64,000 nt of DNA from an uncultured bacterium (GCA_942492175.1 CALODR010000009.1:249711-313710); one strand, 5' to 3'. Shown: positions 20,663 through 29,305, counted from the stretch's first letter. Program-made: numbers and translations. The notes: generated by a model not told the origin, from the letters alone.

Positions 20663-21361
20663 TTAATCAAATATGGTAACTTTGCCTGTGACCTCTGGCG
20701 GAGGTGAATCAGAAAGTATTATCCTTCCGTCTTTTGTCTCATATTTGAATATAGTAGTTTTTGCTTTTGAATACATTATTCCGGAATAAGGGAGTCCCAT
20801 AAATTTTTTTACTTTTCTTATATAATTCTGTGTCTCTTTGTAAGGAGGAACTCCGTTATATTTAATAACCGCCTGTTCACCTGCATTGTATGCAGCGAGA
20901 ACCAATGAAAGCTTCCTGTTATATTTCTCATAAAGATATTTCAAGTGTCTGATCCCGCCGTCAAGGTTCTGATCTGCATCATATCTGTTGGTTACACCGT
21001 AATGTTTTGCAGTATCTTTCATGAGCTGCATGATCCCGACAGCACCTTTCTTTGATTTCGCGAAAGGGTTAAAGCCCGATTCTGCTCTGGCAACTGCCAG
21101 GATAAGGTCTTCTCTCAACTTATATTTTTTAGACAGCTTTGATATTTTATTGCTGTAGAGGCTGGGTACCTGATTTGTTGAGTATGAAGATACAGTAAAT
21201 TTCACAGCACTTGAACTGCTGGCGGGAGAGAAGTTTGATACTGCCGGATTATTAGAGACAATAATCCGTCCATCTGTTGCCTGTTTTACAATTATTTCTC
21301 CCTGAAGATGAAATGGTAGAATTATAGAAAAAATGATAAATAAAAGAATAAAAATTCTCAT
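20663..21361 (-). CDS. Exported lytic transglycosylase (SLT domain)
   Basis: VARAESGFNP (catalytic Glu), GAVGIMQLM, LAAYNAG, PYKETQNY. Confidence 0.92.
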   Translation of the reverse strand: MRIFILLFIIFSIILPFHLQGEIIVKQATDGRIIVSNNPAVSNFSPASSSSAVKFTVSSYSTNQVPSLYSNKISKLSKKYKLREDLILAVARAESGFNPFAKSKKGAVGIMQLMKDTAKHYGVTNRYDADQNLDGGIRHLKYLYEKYNRKLSLVLAAYNAGEQAVIKYNGVPPYKETQNYIRKVKKFMGLPYSGIMYSKAKTTIFKYETKDGRIILSDSPPPEVTGKVTIFD

Positions 21362-23961
21362 TTTTTATTTTTAAGCAGCTTAATAACCTCTTGCTTGAAC
21401 TGTCCGGGATCTTCGATCCTGTCCCCGCCTGCCTGGGCAAAATCGGGTCGACCACCGCCATTTCCCTTAACTATAGAGGCTATCTGCTTTATTAGAGTAC
21501 TAGCATTGACTTTTTTTGTCAAGTTCTTTGGAACAGAGATAACAATTGCAGATTTATCATCATTATTGGTGGAGAGGATCGCAGTATAGTTAAATTTCAT
21601 CTTGATCTCATCCGCTGTTGAACTGAGCATCTTCCTGTCCATACCATCGGAATGATGAATTATAACTGCTGCTCCGTTGACCTCTGTTTTCTTCTCTGCA
21701 ATTGCTCCGATGTCTGATTTTTCAGTCTGTCCGGACTTGCCTTTTTCTTTTTCCGCCTTTTTGCTCTTCTCTTCAAGATCATTCAGATAGCTAAGAAGTC
21801 TATCACCTTTTTGTTTGAACCTGGACTCGATTTTTTCAAGGTTGCTGAATATGGTCTTAAGGTGATCCGCTCCGGCTTTACCTGCCACCGCTTCGATCCG
21901 TCTGATCCCGGAGGCGATCGAAGATTCTGAAATTATCTTAAAAAATCCTATATTACCTGTTCTCAGAAGGTGGGTGCCGCCGCACAATTCACAGGAAAAT
22001 TCCCCAATGGTCAGCATCCGTACCATATCGGAATATTTTTCATCAAATATCGCTATGGCACCACGGCCGAGTGCATCTTCATAAGTGGTTTCGATTGTCT
22101 TTACACTCAGGTTCTCTCTTATTTTTTCGTTAACCAATTCTTCTATCACGCCCAGTTGATCTTTTCCCACTGATTTATAGTGGGTAAAATCAAATCTTAA
22201 TTTATCTGGGCCGACATAGGAGCCGGATTGCTTAACATGGGTTCCCAGAACTTCTCTTAAAGCTGCATGGAGGAGGTGGGTGGAAGTGTGATGAACTGCA
22301 GTGTTCTCTCTTCGAGGTCTGTCAACAGTGACCCTTACAGCATCGCCCTTAACCAGATCTCCTCTTAGGATTTTTATGAAATGGAGATGGCCTCCCGCTG
22401 AATTCTTTCGGGTGTCAGATATTGAGAATAGCGCCTTATCACTTTTTCCCGATCCTGTGTCCCCTGATTGGCCCCCGGATTCCCCGTAAAAAGGGGACTT
22501 TTGAAGGAATATAACAGCTTCATCACCTTCGGTAACCGACGCGGCCTCTTTATTATTTACAAAAATTGAAGTTACAATTGATTCTTCCTCAAAGGATTCA
22601 TATCCTGTAAAAAGTGTTTCTATTCTGTCCATTTTGACGGGGAGGTTAACAGCCCTTTTATCTGACACCCCCTTTCGCGATTTTTCCTGCTGGCCGGCAA
22701 GCTCTTTCCTGAAACCCTCGAGATCTATTTTCATATTCTTCTCAGATGCAAGGTCAACTGAAAAATCAACAGGAAATCCGTAGGTATCGGAGAGCTTGAA
22801 TACTTCAGCGCCTGGGATTGTAGTCTCCCCTTTTTCAATTGAATTCCGGATTAATTCTTCGAATCGTTTTAATCCTGTGAGCAGGGTCCTTTCAAATCTT
22901 TCTTCTTCCGATCTGATAACTTCAGAAATAAATTTTCTGTTCAGTGCCAGCTCAGGATAGGCATTCTCCATTATGTCTATGACGATAGGTGTTATCCGGT
23001 AGAGGAAACTTTTATTAAATCCAATCGAACGGCCATGTCTTGATGCTCTCCTTAGGAGCCGTCTGAGAATATATCCTCTGCCGTCATTTGAGGGGATAAC
23101 TCCGTCGGAGATAAGAAATGTGAGAGCTCTTGAATGGTCTGCAATAACGTTAAGGGCAACTTTAACTTCATCATTATCGGGACTAATTCCGGCCATCTCT
23201 GATGTGAAATCGATGATCGGCCGGAAAAGATCTGTTTCATAATTACTTGAATTACCGTTGATCAGAGCAGTCAGTCTCTCCATACCCATTCCCGTATCGA
23301 TGGAAGGGGAGGGTAAAGGGGTCATAACACCGGATTCATCTTTAAAATACTGCATAAATACGAGGTTCCATATCTCTACAAATCTCTTGTTATCACCTGT
23401 CAGCTCGTCAGGGCCGAACTCTTTTCCTCTATCGTAATGAATTTCCGAACATGGACCGCAGGGGCCGGTATTACCCATTTGCCAGAAATTATCTTTTTCA
23501 CCTAGACGGGCTATCCTGCCTGGCGGAAGCCCTATCTTATCTTCCCAGATCCTGAATGCATCATCATCCTCATGAAAAACCGAGACACTCAGATCTTCAG
23601 GTTTGAATCTGAAGCTTTCTGTCATCAATTCCCATGCAAATTCTATTGCCTTTTCTTTGAAATAATCTCCGAAAGAGAAGTTGCCCAGCATTTCAAAGAA
23701 AGTGTGATGATATTCAGTTCTTCCCACTTCATCAAAATCGTTGTGTTTCCCCGATACCCTCATGCATTTCTGGATAGAGACTGCTCTCGAATAATTTCTC
23801 TTTTCATTCCCGATGAAAACATCTTTGAACTGGTTCATCCCAGCATTTGTGAACAGAATAGTTGGATCTTTAGCCGGGACAAGAGGGGAGGACATCACTT
23901 TGTAGTGATCCTTTTTTCTGAAAAAATCAAAAAAGATATCCCTTATTTCACTGCTTTCCAT
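21358..23961 (-). CDS. alaS: Alanine--tRNA ligase
   Basis: FTNAGMNQFK, HHTFFEMLGNFSFGDYFK, DTGMGMER, editing motifs HTSTH and ELCGGTH, GGGRPDFAQAGG. Confidence 0.98.
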   Translation of the reverse strand: MESSEIRDIFFDFFRKKDHYKVMSSPLVPAKDPTILFTNAGMNQFKDVFIGNEKRNYSRAVSIQKCMRVSGKHNDFDEVGRTEYHHTFFEMLGNFSFGDYFKEKAIEFAWELMTESFRFKPEDLSVSVFHEDDDAFRIWEDKIGLPPGRIARLGEKDNFWQMGNTGPCGPCSEIHYDRGKEFGPDELTGDNKRFVEIWNLVFMQYFKDESGVMTPLPSPSIDTGMGMERLTALINGNSSNYETDLFRPIIDFTSEMAGISPDNDEVKVALNVIADHSRALTFLISDGVIPSNDGRGYILRRLLRRASRHGRSIGFNKSFLYRITPIVIDIMENAYPELALNRKFISEVIRSEEERFERTLLTGLKRFEELIRNSIEKGETTIPGAEVFKLSDTYGFPVDFSVDLASEKNMKIDLEGFRKELAGQQEKSRKGVSDKRAVNLPVKMDRIETLFTGYESFEEESIVTSIFVNNKEAASVTEGDEAVIFLQKSPFYGESGGQSGDTGSGKSDKALFSISDTRKNSAGGHLHFIKILRGDLVKGDAVRVTVDRPRRENTAVHHTSTHLLHAALREVLGTHVKQSGSYVGPDKLRFDFTHYKSVGKDQLGVIEELVNEKIRENLSVKTIETTYEDALGRGAIAIFDEKYSDMVRMLTIGEFSCELCGGTHLLRTGNIGFFKIISESSIASGIRRIEAVAGKAGADHLKTIFSNLEKIESRFKQKGDRLLSYLNDLEEKSKKAEKEKGKSGQTEKSDIGAIAEKKTEVNGAAVIIHHSDGMDRKMLSSTADEIKMKFNYTAILSTNNDDKSAIVISVPKNLTKKVNASTLIKQIASIVKGNGGGRPDFAQAGGDRIEDPGQFKQEVIKLLKNKK

Positions 23962-23966
23962 ATATT

Positions 23967-25148
23967 CTATACATCCAGAAGGTTGTGATCGTTAAAATCT
24001 TTATCTGAAGAATCTCCCCCGTCATTTGAGATATCGGAGATCCTCTGTTCCATCTCTTCAAGAGACATCTCCTTGGTTGACTGGATTCCCGATTTCTTAA
24101 GTTTAAATTCATCTGAATTGGTTGCCCATTTCAATGCTTCCTCATATGTGATCAGGCCACGTTCATAAAGGAAAAAGAGTGACTGGTCGAATGTCTGCAT
24201 TCCGTATTGAGAGATACCCTGTTCAATGGCTTCTCCGATAAGTTTGGTTTTTTCCGGATTTTCAATACAATCCTGTATATATGGGGTATTGATTAAGATC
24301 TCAACAGCAGGTACCCTCCCTTTTTCATCAGCCATGGGGATCAGCCTCATTGATATGATAGCTTTCAAAACAGAAGCAAGCTGGATCCTTATCTGTTTCT
24401 GATGATGAGGCGGAAAGATCGAGATAATTCTGTTGATGGTCTCAGTCGCATCAAGGGTGTGAAGTGTTGACAGAAGCATATGGCCGGTTTCGGCTGCGAG
24501 TAATGCGGTCTCAATTGTTTCCATATCCCTCATCTCACCCACGAGAATAACATCCGGATCTTCCCTGAGAGCACTTCTGAGTGCAGAGGAGAAATTGATG
24601 GTGTCATGCCCGATCTCACGTTGGTTAACAATACTTTTTTTGTCTCTGTGAAGATATTCTATAGGATCTTCAATCGTTATTATGTGTTCGATCCTGTGGA
24701 TATTAATATGATCGATCATGGCAGCAAGGCTGGTTGACTTACCACTACCTGTTGTCCCGGTCACCAGGACCATACCTCTCTTTTCGTCAGCGATTTTCTC
24801 TAGAATTAACGGCAGGTTAAGGTCTGAAATTGATTTGACCTGAGTGGGGATGATCCTCAAGACCAGACCGACCGCTCCGCGCTGCTGAAATACATTGCAC
24901 CTGAACCTTCCGAGTCCGGGGACGGAATAAGCCATATCGAGCTCGTGCTGGGTCTTGAATTTTTCCTTCTGCTCGGGATTCATGATTGAGAACGACATTG
25001 CTATTGTGTCCTCCTGCATCAGTCTTTTAAGTTCGACCATCGGATGCAGTTTCCCGTTGATCCTGAGAATGGGATGGTTCCCGACCTTCAGATGGAGATC
25101 AGATGCGCTTCGTTCAACTGCAATCTTTAACAGATCATCAATATTCAT
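23967..25148 (-). CDS. pilT: PilT/PilU-family type IV pilus retraction ATPase
   Basis: SDLHL, GTTGSGKS, TIEDPIE, ALREDPDVILVGEMRD, AETGH...TLHT, GMQTFDQ. Confidence 0.9.
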   Translation of the reverse strand: MNIDDLLKIAVERSASDLHLKVGNHPILRINGKLHPMVELKRLMQEDTIAMSFSIMNPEQKEKFKTQHELDMAYSVPGLGRFRCNVFQQRGAVGLVLRIIPTQVKSISDLNLPLILEKIADEKRGMVLVTGTTGSGKSTSLAAMIDHINIHRIEHIITIEDPIEYLHRDKKSIVNQREIGHDTINFSSALRSALREDPDVILVGEMRDMETIETALLAAETGHMLLSTLHTLDATETINRIISIFPPHHQKQIRIQLASVLKAIISMRLIPMADEKGRVPAVEILINTPYIQDCIENPEKTKLIGEAIEQGISQYGMQTFDQSLFFLYERGLITYEEALKWATNSDEFKLKKSGIQSTKEMSLEEMEQRISDISNDGGDSSDKDFNDHNLLDV

Positions 25149-25232: not shown

Positions 25233-28200
25233 TCAGAAATCGAAACCGATCCAGAATTTCATTCCGTAAAACCTGGCTTCCTTAAGGTTTGTTTTATATA
25301 CCCACTCAAAATGGAGGGGGTAGCCCCACAGATTTATATTTAGACCGAATCCATAAGATGAGAGCGGATCCTTCAACTCTATCCCCTTTGAGAAGAAATC
25401 GAAATTCCTTAATTCATCATAGTAATTCTTCCAATAGGGGTCGGGTCCGTTATAGGCGGGAATGGAACTATCCCAGACTCCACCGAGGTCAAAAAAGAGG
25501 ACTCCCCTGATCGGGCCAATTAAGCCTAACGGGGTTGCCATGTATTTGATCAGAGGAAATCTCAGCTCAGTTGTAAAGGCAAATCCGTCTGTACCGACCA
25601 GAGATCTGAATTGTGCTGCTCTCAAAGTGTTGTTCCCTCCGGTAGCGAAAAGCATGGGGTTGTCTCCTGATGAAGTGAAACCGGTCAATCTCATTGCCAG
25701 CAGGGTGTTGGGAGCCAGTTTGAAATATTTCCTAAGGTCAACATCAATTGCAGTTGAATCGAGAAAATCTTTACTGAGTTTAAAATATTTGCTGAAAGAT
25801 ATTCTGAAAGTGTGTCCCATCAGAGGACCGAAATTTGTAAATCTTGTTGTCTCACCGACCAGAGATAAAGTGGCGGGTAATGCATATCCGTCAAAGGTCT
25901 GATTGTATGGGAGCTCAGTGCCGTACAGTAATTCATCTGTAAGCTCTTTCTGATGATGAATCGAAAGAGAGAACTCTGCTCTGTATGATCTGCTGAATGG
26001 ATAGAAAAAACCGGTTGTCAGCCCTATTCTCTGGCTTACCAGAGTATAGTTCCGTTTATCAAGGTATGCTGTACTGGTTGGATCTATATATCCTCCCCCT
26101 CCGAGGAAGTATGAGTTTGAGTACCAGTATAAACGGGAAAAGAACTGGAGCCTGCTCTTAAGATTTACATAAGTGAGGCCGTACGACCGGTATCCGTAAT
26201 AGGACGAAACGAGAAGAGAAAATGAGTGATCTTTCATAACATCTGTCAACTGTAGAAAAGAATATCCGAAGATCGATCCATCCGAACCAAATCCGGCAGT
26301 AATGGGGGGAAGTGACGGGATGGAGAGATTTTTAAGAGGTTTATACTTTTTTCTGTTTGCAAGATTGAAATTCAGGTCCTCTTCAAGTTCTTTATTGAAA
26401 CTTCTGTTAGCCTTGATCTCTCCGTCAATGAGAGAGAATTTTGTTCCATGGATATTTTCTCTTCCATATTTTTTTATAACTTCTTCTGAAAAACGGATCT
26501 CTTCTTTCCCGTTCTCACCTTTAACCAGTTGAGGTGATTCAAAATTTACTTCTCTCTTTTCTTTGAATTCAGAGATGTCTTTCTTAAGAAGGACAAAAGT
26601 ACCTTTGAGATATGAAGAAACCAGAAGTTTGTTCTCCTCGTTCGGGATCTCCATAGGGAAAAAGATAGCAGTCTGAACATCTGTGTATCTGTAATTAATC
26701 TTCTTCTCAATGTCGGTTGAATAGAGATTGTAAGCACCCTTCTCATCCGAAGTAAAATATACTTTTTTTCCGTCTGATGAAAAAGTGGGCGTTATGTTGT
26801 TTGTGTTGCCGGAGGTGATCTTCATTGCCATTTCCGGATTATCAATACTTCCGATATAGATATGGGAGTATTTCCCGTCACTTGCAGAGAAAACAACTCT
26901 TTTACCATCCGGAGAAAGGTTGAGTGATTTTATATATAAAAAACCCCTGCTTATTCTATCTGTTTTACCTGAAGAGAGGTTGTGTCTGTACATGAATGAT
27001 CTTGAACCGTCTACACCTGTAAAGTATATGTTCTTCCCGTCTTTGGAAAAATCCGGAGATGAAGGTTCCATAATACCATCAAGCTTTATCATTTTTACTA
27101 CTTTGCTTGACAGCACATCAATGATCACGATATAGGATGTGTATTCTTTCCTTGCAAAAAAAGCTATTTTATCCCCTTTCATGTCCCACGTGAATGTACT
27201 TCCATCTTCCGGATTGAAGAGTACGGAGATACCATCATGTTTTGATGTGAAACCCGGTGTAAGAGTTTTAACGGTTGTGCCGTCTTTCATTGAGATAAGA
27301 ATAATATCTATTTTTCTGCTTTTAAAATTAGCTGTTACGGTTGCAGCAAGTTCCCCTCCAGGAGATATCTGATGTGAAAATGAATAGGCAAAGGGGTAAT
27401 TGGGTCCTATTATATAGCTGTAATCTTCTGCACTCTCTTTTGGAATAAAATCTTTGAACCTGTTCTTTACATATTTTCTTAATTCGAAGTTGAATTCATT
27501 TTTTGTAGTTCCGAATTGTCTGAAAATATTCCGGCTGGATCCGTAAATCCTCCCGCGGAAGGAGAATAGAAGATTCCTGACCCCTCTCACACCGTATTTT
27601 GATTCAATGAACTCATAGATGATATGTCCGAAATCGTAAGGTGTTCTGCCGCTTCTGTTTGCCATCATCAAATCTCCGCTTTTGGAAATGGCGGGGAATG
27701 TGTCGTTCAGGGCAGCATCTCTTATGGTAAGAAGACTAAAGGGGTCCCAGTCCCGTGTTATAAACTCGGAAAACCCTTCCATGATCCATAATGGAGGTGA
27801 GCTGAAGCGGAAAAGGCTTTTAGAACTTTTTTTATAAAGAACTGTATATTCAAATACGTGTCCCAACTCATGTATCAATGTTCGCATAAGGTCTTCGGCT
27901 GATGAATCTCCATGAAGTACCATTCTGTTTGTTAACGGTTCAGCAAACGCCTCCGCGCCGGGAGGAAGAAAACCGGGGTAGATATTGGTCTGTTCGAAAT
28001 CTGTATGAGTTCTGTAGAATACCAGGGGGATCCTCTTCTCCACTTCCACATTCAGGTATTTAGACATTTTGTCATAACCGTTCTCTGCTGTAATTGCTAT
28101 TTTTTTCAGGAGTTTCATGTCATCTGTATAGTGATAGACCCTGAAGTTTGGGGTGTCGAAATATTTCCAGTTAAAACTTTTGGTAACTACTTTATTTTTT

Positions 28201-28292
28201 CCGTAATAGTATGCATAAAATTGAGAGAATACCATTGCAGGTAAAACAAATATCAGAACAAATATAATTAATTTATTAAATTTTCTTTCCAT
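25233..28292 (-). CDS. Omp85/BamA-superfamily outer-membrane protein with peptidase-MA-like (HExxH) domain and TolB/WD40-like propeller
   Basis: Signal peptide; LIHELGH plus WIMEGFSEF; repeats such as PDFSKDG, LSPDGK, TFSSDGK; barrel motifs GGNNTLR, ELRFP, FFDLG; terminal IGFDF. Confidence 0.8.
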   Translation of the reverse strand: MERKFNKLIIFVLIFVLPAMVFSQFYAYYYGKNKVVTKSFNWKYFDTPNFRVYHYTDDMKLLKKIAITAENGYDKMSKYLNVEVEKRIPLVFYRTHTDFEQTNIYPGFLPPGAEAFAEPLTNRMVLHGDSSAEDLMRTLIHELGHVFEYTVLYKKSSKSLFRFSSPPLWIMEGFSEFITRDWDPFSLLTIRDAALNDTFPAISKSGDLMMANRSGRTPYDFGHIIYEFIESKYGVRGVRNLLFSFRGRIYGSSRNIFRQFGTTKNEFNFELRKYVKNRFKDFIPKESAEDYSYIIGPNYPFAYSFSHQISPGGELAATVTANFKSRKIDIILISMKDGTTVKTLTPGFTSKHDGISVLFNPEDGSTFTWDMKGDKIAFFARKEYTSYIVIIDVLSSKVVKMIKLDGIMEPSSPDFSKDGKNIYFTGVDGSRSFMYRHNLSSGKTDRISRGFLYIKSLNLSPDGKRVVFSASDGKYSHIYIGSIDNPEMAMKITSGNTNNITPTFSSDGKKVYFTSDEKGAYNLYSTDIEKKINYRYTDVQTAIFFPMEIPNEENKLLVSSYLKGTFVLLKKDISEFKEKREVNFESPQLVKGENGKEEIRFSEEVIKKYGRENIHGTKFSLIDGEIKANRSFNKELEEDLNFNLANRKKYKPLKNLSIPSLPPITAGFGSDGSIFGYSFLQLTDVMKDHSFSLLVSSYYGYRSYGLTYVNLKSRLQFFSRLYWYSNSYFLGGGGYIDPTSTAYLDKRNYTLVSQRIGLTTGFFYPFSRSYRAEFSLSIHHQKELTDELLYGTELPYNQTFDGYALPATLSLVGETTRFTNFGPLMGHTFRISFSKYFKLSKDFLDSTAIDVDLRKYFKLAPNTLLAMRLTGFTSSGDNPMLFATGGNNTLRAAQFRSLVGTDGFAFTTELRFPLIKYMATPLGLIGPIRGVLFFDLGGVWDSSIPAYNGPDPYWKNYYDELRNFDFFSKGIELKDPLSSYGFGLNINLWGYPLHFEWVYKTNLKEARFYGMKFWIGFDF

Positions 28293-28304
28293 TTTTTTTC
28301 CTGT

Positions 28305-28910
28305 TCATTTAATCAGATATCTTACTTCCATTCTTCCAAGACCCATAAAAAGACGTATAAGTTTCTCAGTAATGTTTTTGAAAAGAAACTCAAAGTTATA
28401 ATCGGGTTTGTTCCTGTCGGCGCCATTGAAGGACTCTTTAATTGTTCTGGAAAAAACATCTTTTCCGGTAACTGCATCCTTGAAAAATACATTGAGTGTC
28501 AAGTCCCAGTTCTCGATCTTTACAAAAACTCTCACACCTTTTTTCTCTTTATCATCGTCAATCACATTCCTTTCTTTAATTGTGAGTGAAAGATCACCAC
28601 CGACCAGAAGCAGGTCACCCTCTTTCAGTACAGAAGAGGTTTTGTCTTCGGGTGTATATCTTGAAACCGGTTTTTTCAGTGTTTTAGGCAATTCGTTTAA
28701 GAAGAAATAGTCAATGCTCGGGCCCGGATCATATTCTGACGGAAATTTTTCGACCTTCACCGGAACGTAAGCAATATCTTTATATTTAAGAAAATTGATC
28801 GCATTAACACTCTTTACTGGAATTCTCACCAGATTTACCGGCCTTGTATTGCAGCTGGCGGCGAGGAGGGTAAAGATCAAAGAGAAGACTATTACAAGTG
28901 TTTTTTTCAT
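28305..28910 (-). CDS. Uncharacterised lipoprotein
   Basis: Lipobox LAASC; start overlaps the upstream TPR gene stop. Confidence 0.7.
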   Translation of the reverse strand: MKKTLVIVFSLIFTLLAASCNTRPVNLVRIPVKSVNAINFLKYKDIAYVPVKVEKFPSEYDPGPSIDYFFLNELPKTLKKPVSRYTPEDKTSSVLKEGDLLLVGGDLSLTIKERNVIDDDKEKKGVRVFVKIENWDLTLNVFFKDAVTGKDVFSRTIKESFNGADRNKPDYNFEFLFKNITEKLIRLFMGLGRMEVRYLIK

Positions 28911-29305
28911 TTTCTTCCTCCCAACTCTTCTTTTTTCATCTTTTTCATTCTTTTCATGTCCTCTTTGTCTTCAGCATTTAATTTCATGTCGGGATTCATT
29001 CGCCTTTTCAGTCTGCTGAGGTTTCTTTTTATATATTCATTTCCGGGAGAAAGTTTCAATGCTTTTTCATATTCCTTTTTTGCCTCTTCCAGTTTATTCT
29101 GAAACTCCAGCGAGATAGCAATATTGTTATGGATTGATGCAGTGTTTTTTCCGGTACGCAAAGCTCTTGTCCACCTGTAATGAGCTTCTTTCCATAAACC
29201 CATTTTTGCCAGTTTATTTCCAAATTTATACTCGGTTTCCACTCTGGTGGCAGAACATCCTGCAAACAGGAATGCCGTAAGCAGCAATAGTGTGATCTGT
29301 TTCAA
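28907..29305 (-). CDS. TPR lipoprotein
   Basis: Lipobox FAGC; IHNNIAISLE...EAKKEYEKALKLSP TPR pattern. Confidence 0.8.
   Translation of the reverse strand: MKQITLLLLTAFLFAGCSATRVETEYKFGNKLAKMGLWKEAHYRWTRALRTGKNTASIHNNIAISLEFQNKLEEAKKEYEKALKLSPGNEYIKRNLSRLKRRMNPDMKLNAEDKEDMKRMKKMKKEELGGRK

What the first reader, a model, noticed from the sequence alone, without database searches (positions are those of the whole stretch)
25233..29305. Omp85-like barrel fused to an HExxH domain and beta-propeller, preceded by two lipoproteins
Seen: a three-gene unit of TPR lipoprotein, unknown lipoprotein and a 1019-aa protein. The large protein has HELGH plus downstream EGFSE (gluzincin-like), several PD40/WD40-like repeats, no obvious POTRA repeats and a terminal Phe. 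Established: WD40-type Omp85 paralogues exist and are functionally uncharacterised; BamB is a propeller and BamD a TPR lipoprotein. Inference: a second, self-contained Bam-like or proteolytic OM assembly/secretion machine, possibly processing its substrates.
Basis: partly seen in the sequence, partly recalled or inferred. Interest (0 to 1): 0.62.

Follow-up and report, generated by a model that had tools for sequence, protein, structure and literature searches.

The report
Peptidase-propeller Omp85 barrel with two partners
This operon encodes an outer-membrane barrel of the BamA type that carries a zinc peptidase and a TolB-like propeller instead of POTRA domains, plus two small partner proteins; the protein type was catalogued in 2014 and is still untested, so this is a new member of a known kind with a well-documented partner set.

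Summary
On the minus strand, three tightly packed genes encode a 132-aa TPR lipoprotein, a 201-aa lipoprotein and a 1019-aa protein. The large protein has a signal peptide, an MA-clan zinc peptidase domain, a six-bladed TolB-like propeller, an unconserved linker and a 16-stranded BamA-type barrel ending in Phe.

HExxH plus Glu172 are invariant in 78 of 78 relatives. The barrel's loop-6 and wall residues are also invariant.

This architecture is the "WD40-like Omp85" subfamily of Heinz & Lithgow (2014). Their supplement already lists the peptidase domain. I found no functional study.

The lipoprotein link is conserved. In 201 Acidobacteriota genomes, barrel and second lipoprotein co-occur in 99, occur alone in 5 and 1, and are both absent in 96. 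They are adjacent in 83 of the 99.

The second lipoprotein has the LptE/PelC/CsgG fold.

The same genome also holds a canonical BamA, BamD and LptE. The "self-contained second BAM" reading is therefore not supported by homology.

Most likely this is an outer-membrane-tethered, periplasm-facing peptidase complex acting in envelope protein quality control or processing. That is inference, not shown.

The parts
28907..29305 (-). Gene 1: small TPR lipoprotein. 132 aa, TTG start behind AGGAGG, lipobox LFAG-C, about 2-3 TPR units, Lys/Glu-rich tail.
   Evidence: A homologue lies directly upstream of the unit in 58 of 80 related loci. The lipobox Cys is kept in 46 of 59 aligned sequences; Vicinamibacteria and Marinacidobacterales homologues carry an ordinary signal peptide instead. 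No match to BamD family PF13525.
28305..28910 (-). Gene 2: 201-aa lipoprotein (lipobox LAAS-C) with an LptE/PelC/CsgG/HpaA-type alpha/beta fold. No Pfam or NCBIfam family.
   Evidence: AlphaFold2 pLDDT 89.4. Foldseek matches HpaA, CsgG, PelC and LptE at E 1e-5 to 1e-4, TM 0.4-0.6. The lipobox Cys is kept in 60 of 61 complete sequences of a 65-row alignment. At least 6017 database clusters, none with a Pfam domain.
25233..28292 (-). Gene 3: 1019-aa peptidase-propeller-Omp85 protein (WD40-like Omp85 subfamily). The end coordinate includes the stop codon.
28224..28292 (-). Signal peptide of gene 3, residues 1 to about 23. The cleavage site was read by eye, after VFS.
   Evidence: Sequence. Residues 2-19 form a hydrophobic helix, and residues 1-30 have low pLDDT in the model.
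27408..28202 (-). MA-clan (gluzincin) zinc peptidase domain, residues about 31-295. HELGH is at 141-145 (window 27858-27872). The third ligand, Glu172, sits in WIMEGFSEF (window 27777-27779).
   Evidence: H141, E142, H145, W169, E172 and G173 are invariant in 41/41 and 78/78 relatives. Weak family matches to Peptidase_MA_2, M9, DUF6782 and Zincin_1. Phyre2 M1/M9 hits for the subfamily are listed in Table S3 of PMC4104836.
26493..27407 (-). TolB-like PD40 beta-propeller, residues about 296-600. About six blades by strand count.
   Evidence: Model pLDDT is mostly 86-95 here. Foldseek matches TolB at E 1e-10.
26313..26492 (-). Variable linker, residues about 601-660. Not a recognisable POTRA domain.
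   Evidence: pLDDT 52-80. Mean frequency of the commonest residue is 0.19, and no column reaches 95% conservation. No POTRA match.
25236..26312 (-). Omp85/BamA-type 16-stranded beta-barrel, residues about 661-1019. Carries the loop-6 motif GGNNTLR (G885, G886, R891), wall residues E909, R911 and D935, and the C-terminal WIGFDF.
   Evidence: PF01103 at 30.6 bits, cut-off 24. 16 strands by DSSP. Foldseek matches BamA barrels with target TM up to 0.66. Invariant residues.

Best explanation
The 1019-aa protein belongs to the catalogued but untested 'WD40-like Omp85' subfamily.

Most likely arrangement and function:
- After export, its C-terminal 16-stranded barrel sits in the outer membrane.
- As in other Omp85 proteins, the N-terminal part stays in the periplasm on a flexible 60-residue tether.
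- That part is an apparently active gluzincin peptidase next to a six-bladed TolB-like propeller. The propeller probably selects or gates substrates, as propellers do in tricorn, prolyl oligopeptidase and DPP-IV.
- The barrel works with two dedicated partners: a small TPR protein (a lipoprotein in this lineage) and an LptE/PelC-fold lipoprotein.
- The lipoprotein probably docks on the periplasmic face of the barrel rather than inside it.
- The complex most likely cuts or degrades envelope proteins at the outer membrane, as quality control or maturation. In function it would resemble the TPR-bearing zinc protease BepA acting at BAM/LptDE in E. coli.

Shown: the domain architecture, intact catalytic and barrel motifs, and the partner linkage.

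Inferred: the topology, the physical complex, the substrates and the catalysis.
For: Architecture:
-. The whole-protein model has pLDDT 80.4 and pTM 0.78.
- It matches TolB and BamA barrels.

Catalytic and barrel residues:
- HExxH plus Glu172 are invariant in 78/78 relatives, down to about 30% identity.
- A nearly invariant R216/Y219/H223 block lies 74-78 residues after the motif. M1 and thermolysin enzymes carry their transition-state Tyr/His at a similar distance (my knowledge).
- Loop-6 GG..R891 and E909/R911 are invariant. D935 is invariant in the 41 closer relatives and kept in 51 of 78. This parallels the BamA loop-6 lock, so the barrel is probably more than an anchor.
- The barrel has more columns at 95% conservation or above (41) than the peptidase domain (30) or the propeller (18).

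Partnership:
- The order TPR, lipoprotein, barrel is found in 61 of 80 loci.
- Across 201 genomes of the phylum the counts are 99 both, 5 barrel only, 1 lipoprotein only and 96 neither. The two genes are adjacent in 83 of the 99.
- Where they are unlinked, the TPR and lipoprotein genes stay together as a pair, one copy per genome.
- The lipoprotein has the fold of known outer-membrane barrel partners.

Periplasmic topology:
- This is the Omp85 default.
- The linker is unconserved and low-confidence.

Envelope-stress hint:
- In the Vicinamibacterales clade the gene lies head-to-head with an ECF sigma / anti-sigma / secreted redoxin operon in 10-14 of 17 loci.
Against: - No experiment exists for any member.
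- I could not run a multimer prediction, so the physical complex is inferred from gene linkage alone.
- I could not inspect model coordinates. The side of the barrel on which the peptidase sits was therefore not examined.
- About half of Acidobacteriota lack the system, so it is not a universal housekeeping function.
- The BepA analogy is functional only. The peptidase family differs (M1/M9-like, not M48).
- Co-occurrence across a phylum is partly explained by shared descent.
Confidence: 0.5

Rival explanations
1. One reading: a self-contained second BAM-like insertase. The barrel would insert a dedicated set of outer-membrane proteins. The fused propeller would play BamB, the TPR lipoprotein BamD and the second lipoprotein BamE or BamC. 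The peptidase would trim or proofread substrates.
For: - The barrel is BamA-type with a conserved loop-6 lock and a beta-signal-like C-terminus.
- Two dedicated lipoproteins co-occur with it.
Against: - There are no POTRA domains.
- The propeller is a six-bladed TolB/PD40 type, not the eight-bladed BamB type.
- The TPR protein has only about 2-3 repeats and no BamD (PF13525) match.
- The genome already has a 5-POTRA BamA, a second POTRA Omp85 and a BamD.
- The second lipoprotein has an LptE/PelC fold, not a BamE or BamC fold.
Confidence: 0.15
2. A type-V-like self-exporter. The barrel would translocate its own peptidase-propeller passenger to the cell surface, as proposed for the patatin-Omp85 protein PlpD. 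There it would degrade external proteins for nutrition.
For: - The passenger lies N-terminal to an Omp85 barrel, as in type Vd.
- The peptidase is intact.
- Heinz & Lithgow raise surface export as an option for Omp85-enzyme fusions.
Against: - There is no POTRA domain between passenger and barrel.
- The 60-residue linker is unconserved and is not predicted as a pore-spanning helix.
- A 570-residue passenger with a closed propeller would be large for this route.
- The gene is mostly single-copy, and its dedicated periplasm-type partners point to an envelope role.
- None of these points is decisive.
Confidence: 0.15
3. A Pel- or alginate-style export gate. TPR protein, PelC-like lipoprotein and outer-membrane barrel would form a conduit for a secreted polymer, peptide or surface lipoprotein. 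The peptidase would process the cargo.
For: - The triad of TPR, PelC/LptE-fold lipoprotein and barrel recurs in PelB/PelC and LptD/LptE (comparison from my knowledge).
- Earlier notes of this scan report that relatives in other phyla sit beside type IX secretion genes (not verified by me).
Against: - No polysaccharide or secretion genes are linked here. The neighbours are pilT and alaS, and only in the closest relatives.
- No PorV scores above the cut-off in this genome.
- Omp85 barrels with a locked loop 6 are not known to act as open channels.
Confidence: 0.1

Closest known systems
'WD40-like Omp85' subfamily (Heinz & Lithgow 2014, Front Microbiol 5:370, PMC4104836; restated as 'WD40 and peptidase domains' in PMC11358297, 2024)
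   Same: Same three-part design: a peptidase-like domain, a TolB-like PD40 propeller and an Omp85 barrel, with no POTRA. Their Table S3 lists BamA barrel, TolB and M1/M9 peptidase Phyre2 hits for members of the subfamily.
   Different: - The paper's examples come from other phyla (my reading of the UniProt accessions).
- Its main text discusses only the propeller.
- It does not mention partner genes.
- Here the protein comes with a TPR protein and an LptE/PelC-fold lipoprotein, conserved across the Acidobacteriota lineages that carry it.
BamA / BAM complex (E. coli)
   Same: A 16-stranded Omp85 barrel with a conserved loop-6 Arg, acidic wall residues and a C-terminal aromatic residue. It is accompanied by lipoproteins, one of them a TPR protein.
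   Different: - No POTRA domains.
- The partners are not homologous to BamB, BamD or BamE.
- Canonical BamA and BamD are encoded elsewhere in the same genome.
BepA (E. coli periplasmic M48 zinc protease with a TPR domain, acting on stalled LptD/BamA at the BAM complex; from my knowledge)
   Same: Combines a zinc protease, TPR repeats, an Omp85 barrel and an LptE-type lipoprotein in one functional setting at the outer membrane.
   Different: - Different peptidase family.
- BepA is soluble and binds BAM non-covalently.
- Here the peptidase is fused to its own barrel and the TPR is a separate small protein.
- This is a resemblance of parts only, not homology.
LptE, PelC, CsgG and HpaA lipoproteins
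   Same: Gene 2 shares their alpha/beta fold and N-terminal lipid anchor. Several of them partner with outer-membrane barrels.
   Different: - No sequence-family match.
- TM scores are only 0.4-0.6.
- The genome has its own LptE elsewhere.
- A 16-stranded barrel is too small to hold such a domain as an internal plug (inference).
PlpD / type Vd autotransporters
   Same: An enzyme domain N-terminal to an Omp85-type barrel.
   Different: PlpD has a patatin passenger and a POTRA domain. Here there is a peptidase plus propeller and no POTRA.

Membership tests
WD40-like Omp85 subfamily | C-terminal Omp85 (PF01103) 16-stranded barrel | tested here: met
   PF01103 at 30.6 bits, cut-off 24. 16 strands in the model. 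BamA barrels match with target TM up to 0.66.
WD40-like Omp85 subfamily | TolB-like PD40/WD40 propeller N-terminal to the barrel | tested here: met
   PD40 at E 3e-13. TolB model at E 6e-22. TolB structures at E about 2e-12. Foldseek TolB at E 1e-10.
WD40-like Omp85 subfamily | M1/M9-like peptidase domain at the N-terminus (Table S3 of PMC4104836) | tested here: met
   HExxH plus Glu are invariant. Peptidase_MA_2 and M9 each match 5 of 10 aligned N-domains, best E 1.2e-5. These are weak sequence-family matches; no separate fold search of the domain was possible.
WD40-like Omp85 subfamily | No POTRA domains | tested here: met
   No POTRA family at E <= 1. The own-genome BamA gives POTRA at E 4e-50 with the same tool.
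Gluzincin (clan MA(E)) metallopeptidases | HExxH motif with a third-ligand Glu about 18-30 residues downstream | tested here: met
   H141, E142, H145 and E172 (27 residues after H145) are present in 78/78 relatives.
Gluzincin (clan MA(E)) metallopeptidases | Zinc binding and peptide hydrolysis | not testable with these tools
   Needs purified protein and an assay.
Canonical BamA | Five (or at least one) POTRA domains that bind substrates and BamB/BamD | tested here: not met
   none found. The true BamA lies at G000:C4:331275.
Canonical BamA | Loop-6 (V/I)RG(F/Y) motif locked to the barrel wall | tested here: inconclusive
   The variant GGNNTLRAA keeps an invariant G885, G886 and R891, plus invariant E909 and R911.
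BamD (gene 1) | Match to YfiO/BamD family PF13525; about five TPR units | tested here: not met
   No PF13525 hit at E <= 1, and only about 2-3 TPR units. A BamD at 84.5 bits lies elsewhere in the genome.
LptE (gene 2) | Match to PF04390; genomic or functional pairing with LptD | tested here: not met
   No Pfam hit. A PF04390 gene at 53 bits lies on contig 8. Gene 2 pairs with the Omp85 gene instead. The fold resemblance is real.
Type Vd autotransporter (PlpD-like) | Patatin passenger and a POTRA domain before the barrel | tested here: not met
   neither domain is found.

The most novel reading that the evidence does not exclude
The three proteins would form a third functional class of Omp85 machine, a proteolytic counterpart of BAM.
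- The barrel would use its BamA-like seam to engage stalled or misassembled outer-membrane proteins or lipoproteins.
- It would hand them through the propeller to its own fused zinc peptidase.
- The TPR protein and the LptE/PelC-fold lipoprotein would be obligatory subunits.
- In some lineages the system would be under ECF envelope-stress control.
Probability: 0.15. Interest if true: 0.8.

Novelty: new member of a known kind. Interest (0 to 1): 0.42.

Why it matters
Omp85 proteins are central to building bacterial and organelle outer membranes, yet this subfamily has had no assigned function since it was catalogued in 2014.

This report adds three things:
- The catalytic and barrel motifs are intact.
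- The protein comes with two dedicated partners, one of them in a large family (at least 6017 clusters) that carries no annotation.
- The partners are nearly always inherited together with it.

Together these give a concrete three-component system to test.

If the barrel and peptidase cooperate, this would be a new way of policing the outer membrane. If the barrel is only an anchor, it is an ordinary tethered periplasmic protease.

Tried and rejected
- **Profile search of the N-terminal domain against PDB sequences:** only chance hits, E about 1.
- **Separate fold search of the peptidase domain:** not possible. The whole-chain search is dominated by the propeller and barrel, and I spent the second structure job on gene 2.
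- **PF26549 and PF26550:** these are precomputed on most homologues but are not in the local Pfam copy. I could not name them.
- **pilT and alaS as part of the unit:** rejected. They follow the Omp85 gene only in the two closest loci, L004 and L005.
- **Promoter and terminator scan:** at chance level.
- **Type IX secretion link reported for other phyla by earlier scan notes:** no PorV above the cut-off in this genome, so it does not apply here.
- **Gene 2 as the genome's LptE, or gene 1 as its BamD:** rejected.
- **Partner family outside Acidobacteriota:** the top 120 database hits are Acidobacteriota except one short contig labelled Planctomycetes. This stays open.
Full report
**1. What is in the sequence**

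On the minus strand, three genes are packed together.
- Gene 1 runs 29305..28907 and encodes 132 aa. It starts at TTG, 5 nt after an AGGAGG.
- Gene 2 runs 28910..28305 and encodes 201 aa. It overlaps gene 1 by 4 nt.
- Gene 3 runs 28292..25233 and encodes 1019 aa, after a 12-nt gap.

Both small proteins begin with a signal peptide ending in a lipobox, LFAG-C and LAAS-C. Gene 1 carries TPR repeats (TPR_2, E 8e-9). Gene 2 matches nothing in Pfam or NCBIfam.

Downstream lie pilT, after an 84-nt gap, and then alaS. These two follow the unit only in the two closest relatives, so they are not part of it.

**2. The large protein**

It has a signal peptide, HELGH at 141-145 and EGFSE at 172-176. PD40 repeats match at E 3e-13. 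There is TolB-like similarity over residues 374-540 (NCBIfam E 6e-22, PDB E about 2e-12). No POTRA domain appears at E <= 1. The protein ends in WIGFDF.

An AlphaFold2 model built on 41 homologues has pLDDT 80.4 and pTM 0.78. It shows four parts:
- a mixed alpha/beta domain, residues about 31-295;
- about six four-stranded blades, residues 296-600;
- a low-confidence linker, residues 601-660;
- 16 long strands, residues 664-1015.

Foldseek against the PDB returns TolB (E 1e-10) and many BamA structures. Barrel-only BamA chains align over about 400 columns with target TM up to 0.66. A six-frame search of the genome scores the last 306 residues at 30.6 bits against PF01103, whose cut-off is 24 bits. 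The plain hmmscan had not listed this.

**3. Conservation**

I examined 41 homologues and 78 full-length proteins from related loci, down to about 30% identity.
- H141, E142, H145, W169, E172 and G173 are invariant in both sets.
- In the barrel, G885, G886 and R891 (loop 6, between strands 11 and 12) and E909 and R911 are invariant in both sets.
- D935 is invariant in the 41 and kept in 51 of the 78. The C-terminal aromatic residue is nearly invariant.
- The barrel has 41 columns at 95% conservation or above. The peptidase domain has 30, the propeller 18 and the linker none.

The motif W-x-x-E-G-F resembles the third-ligand motif of M1 aminopeptidases (my knowledge). N-terminal domains of relatives give weak matches to Peptidase_MA_2 and M9 collagenase, 5 of 10 each, best E 1.2e-5.

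The peptidase therefore looks active. The barrel looks constrained beyond what a simple membrane anchor would need.

**4. It is a known kind**

Heinz & Lithgow (2014, PMC4104836) defined a 'WD40-like Omp85' cluster and compared it to a BamA-BamB fusion. Their Table S3 lists, for its members, BamA barrel hits, TolB hits and a 'best aminopeptidase hit' at about 99% Phyre2 confidence: 1z5h, 4kxd, 4fgm, 3qnf and the collagenase 4ar1. A 2024 paper describes the subfamily as having 'WD40 and peptidase domains' (PMC11358297).

Three full-text searches found no functional study. Earlier notes of this scan reached the same classification for many other genomes. I treated those notes as leads and re-tested the parts that matter here.

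**5. The partners**

*Linkage in related loci.* A scan of species-representative genomes found at least 499 related loci. The best 80 appear to be Acidobacteriota: their titles name Aminicenantes, Vicinamibacteria, Marinacidobacterales and Luteitalea, apart from 'uncultured' titles that look mislabelled. With iterated profiles, 61 of the 80 loci have the gene 2 homologue just upstream on the same strand. In 58 of them the TPR gene lies upstream of that.

*Lipid anchors.* The lipobox Cys of gene 2 is kept in 60 of 61 complete sequences. That of the TPR protein is kept in 46 of 59. Vicinamibacteria and Marinacidobacterales homologues have an ordinary signal peptide instead.

*Co-occurrence.* I searched an even sample of 201 Acidobacteriota genomes (I tallied the tables by hand).

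| Barrel protein | Gene 2 family | Genomes |
|---|---|---|
| present | present | 99 |
| present | absent | 5 |
| absent | present | 1 |
| absent | absent | 96 |

- The barrel protein is present in 104 genomes in all and the gene 2 family in 100.
- Most of the five barrel-only genomes are fragmented or belong to families whose gene 2 hits are weak.
- The two genes are adjacent in 83 of the 99 genomes that have both.
- All 17 sampled genomes of the window's own class carry the barrel protein.

*The unlinked clade.* In three genomes of the Vicinamibacterales/Luteitalea clade, where the genes are unlinked, the TPR and lipoprotein genes still sit together as a pair elsewhere. There is one copy per genome, and obg lies nearby in two of the three.

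*Size of the gene 2 family.* At least 6017 clusters match. None of the 120 listed has a Pfam domain, and every source name shown is 'hypothetical protein'.

**6. Fold of gene 2**

The AlphaFold2 model has pLDDT 89.4. It matches HpaA, CsgG, PelC, LptE, FlgT and GNA1162 at E 1e-5 to 1e-4 and TM 0.4-0.6. This is the alpha/beta lipoprotein fold that recurs next to outer-membrane barrels.

It is not the genome's LptE. A PF04390 gene lies on another contig.

**7. Is it a second BAM?**

The genome encodes three pieces of the canonical machinery elsewhere:
- a canonical BamA with five POTRA matches;
- a second POTRA-bearing Omp85;
- a BamD at 84.5 bits.

Gene 1 does not match the BamD family. The propeller is the TolB type. 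The literal BamA/B/D/E analogy is therefore not supported, although a barrel-centred complex with lipoproteins remains likely.

**8. Most likely mechanism (inference)**

The N-terminal part of an Omp85 protein normally stays in the periplasm, and the unconserved linker fits a flexible tether. I therefore read the protein as an outer-membrane-tethered, propeller-gated zinc peptidase. Its conserved barrel and two partners would form one complex acting on envelope proteins.

Two observations give this some colour.
- The parts list (zinc protease, TPR, Omp85 barrel, LptE-fold lipoprotein) mirrors the E. coli BepA-BAM-LptDE quality-control setting (my knowledge; resemblance only).
- In the Vicinamibacterales clade the gene lies head-to-head with an ECF sigma / zf-HC2 anti-sigma / secreted AhpC-TSA redoxin operon in 10-14 of 17 loci.

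The rivals are surface export of the peptidase, a specialised insertase and an export gate. None can be excluded without topology and genetics.

**9. Limits**

- No multimer prediction was possible, and I had no access to model coordinates.
- Two Pfam accessions seen on homologues could not be identified.
- I could not test whether the partner family extends beyond Acidobacteriota.

**10. Verdict**

The feature is real and well conserved. It is a new member of a catalogued, uncharacterised Omp85 subfamily. The useful addition is a quantified, phylum-wide partnership with a TPR protein and an unannotated LptE/PelC-fold lipoprotein. Interest is moderate.

Noticed in passing
window 23967-25148 (-) and 21358-23961 (-): A PilT/PilU-type ATPase (TIGR01420, E 2e-142) and alaS follow the Omp85 gene on the same strand, after 84-nt and 5-nt gaps. 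This neighbourhood is kept only in the two closest relatives (L004, L005).
   Followed up: partly
L067, L071, L073, L074, L075, L078, L079, L083 and others (upstream of the match, opposite strand): In the Vicinamibacterales/Luteitalea clade the Omp85-peptidase gene lacks adjacent partners. It lies head-to-head with an ECF sigma / zf-HC2 anti-sigma / secreted AhpC-TSA redoxin operon, often with a 4HBT thioesterase gene downstream. This may point to envelope-stress control.
   Followed up: partly
L099 1209-4262 (-), L100 726-3869 (-), L101 491-3826 (+): Some Acidobacteriota genomes carry a second, divergent paralogue with the same peptidase-PD40-Omp85 design, yet most have only one gene 2 homologue. 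Whether the paralogue shares the partners or has none is unknown.
   Followed up: partly
L046, L047, L051-L056, L059, L061, L063, L066, L077, L081 (TPR gene upstream of the match): The TPR partner is a lipoprotein in Aminicenantes. In Vicinamibacteria and Marinacidobacterales it has an ordinary signal peptide without the Cys, so its membrane anchoring is not a fixed feature of the system.
   Followed up: partly
L002 (G000:C4:601709-605605): The genome has a second POTRA-bearing Omp85, about 784-908 aa, besides BamA. It could be a TamA-like or BamA-like paralogue. I did not look for TamB nearby.
   Followed up: no
window 25236-26153 (-): Tool discrepancy. hmmscan of the whole protein listed no PF01103 match at E <= 1. 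The six-frame genome search scored the same stretch at 30.6 bits. Divergent barrels of this subfamily can be missed by routine annotation, which fits the mixed names 'PD40 domain-containing' and 'BamA/TamA family' given by sources.
   Followed up: partly
L005, L011, L012, L014, L021, L023, L025, L078-L080 (record titles): Several public MAG records that hold this Acidobacteriota-type operon are titled 'uncultured Clostridia', 'Eubacteriales' or 'Bifidobacteriaceae bacterium'. These look like mislabelled taxonomy.
   Followed up: no
window 28907-28990 (-): The TPR lipoprotein ends in a Lys/Glu/Met-rich low-complexity tail (...EDKEDMKRMKKMKKEELGGRK). I did not examine its conservation.
   Followed up: no
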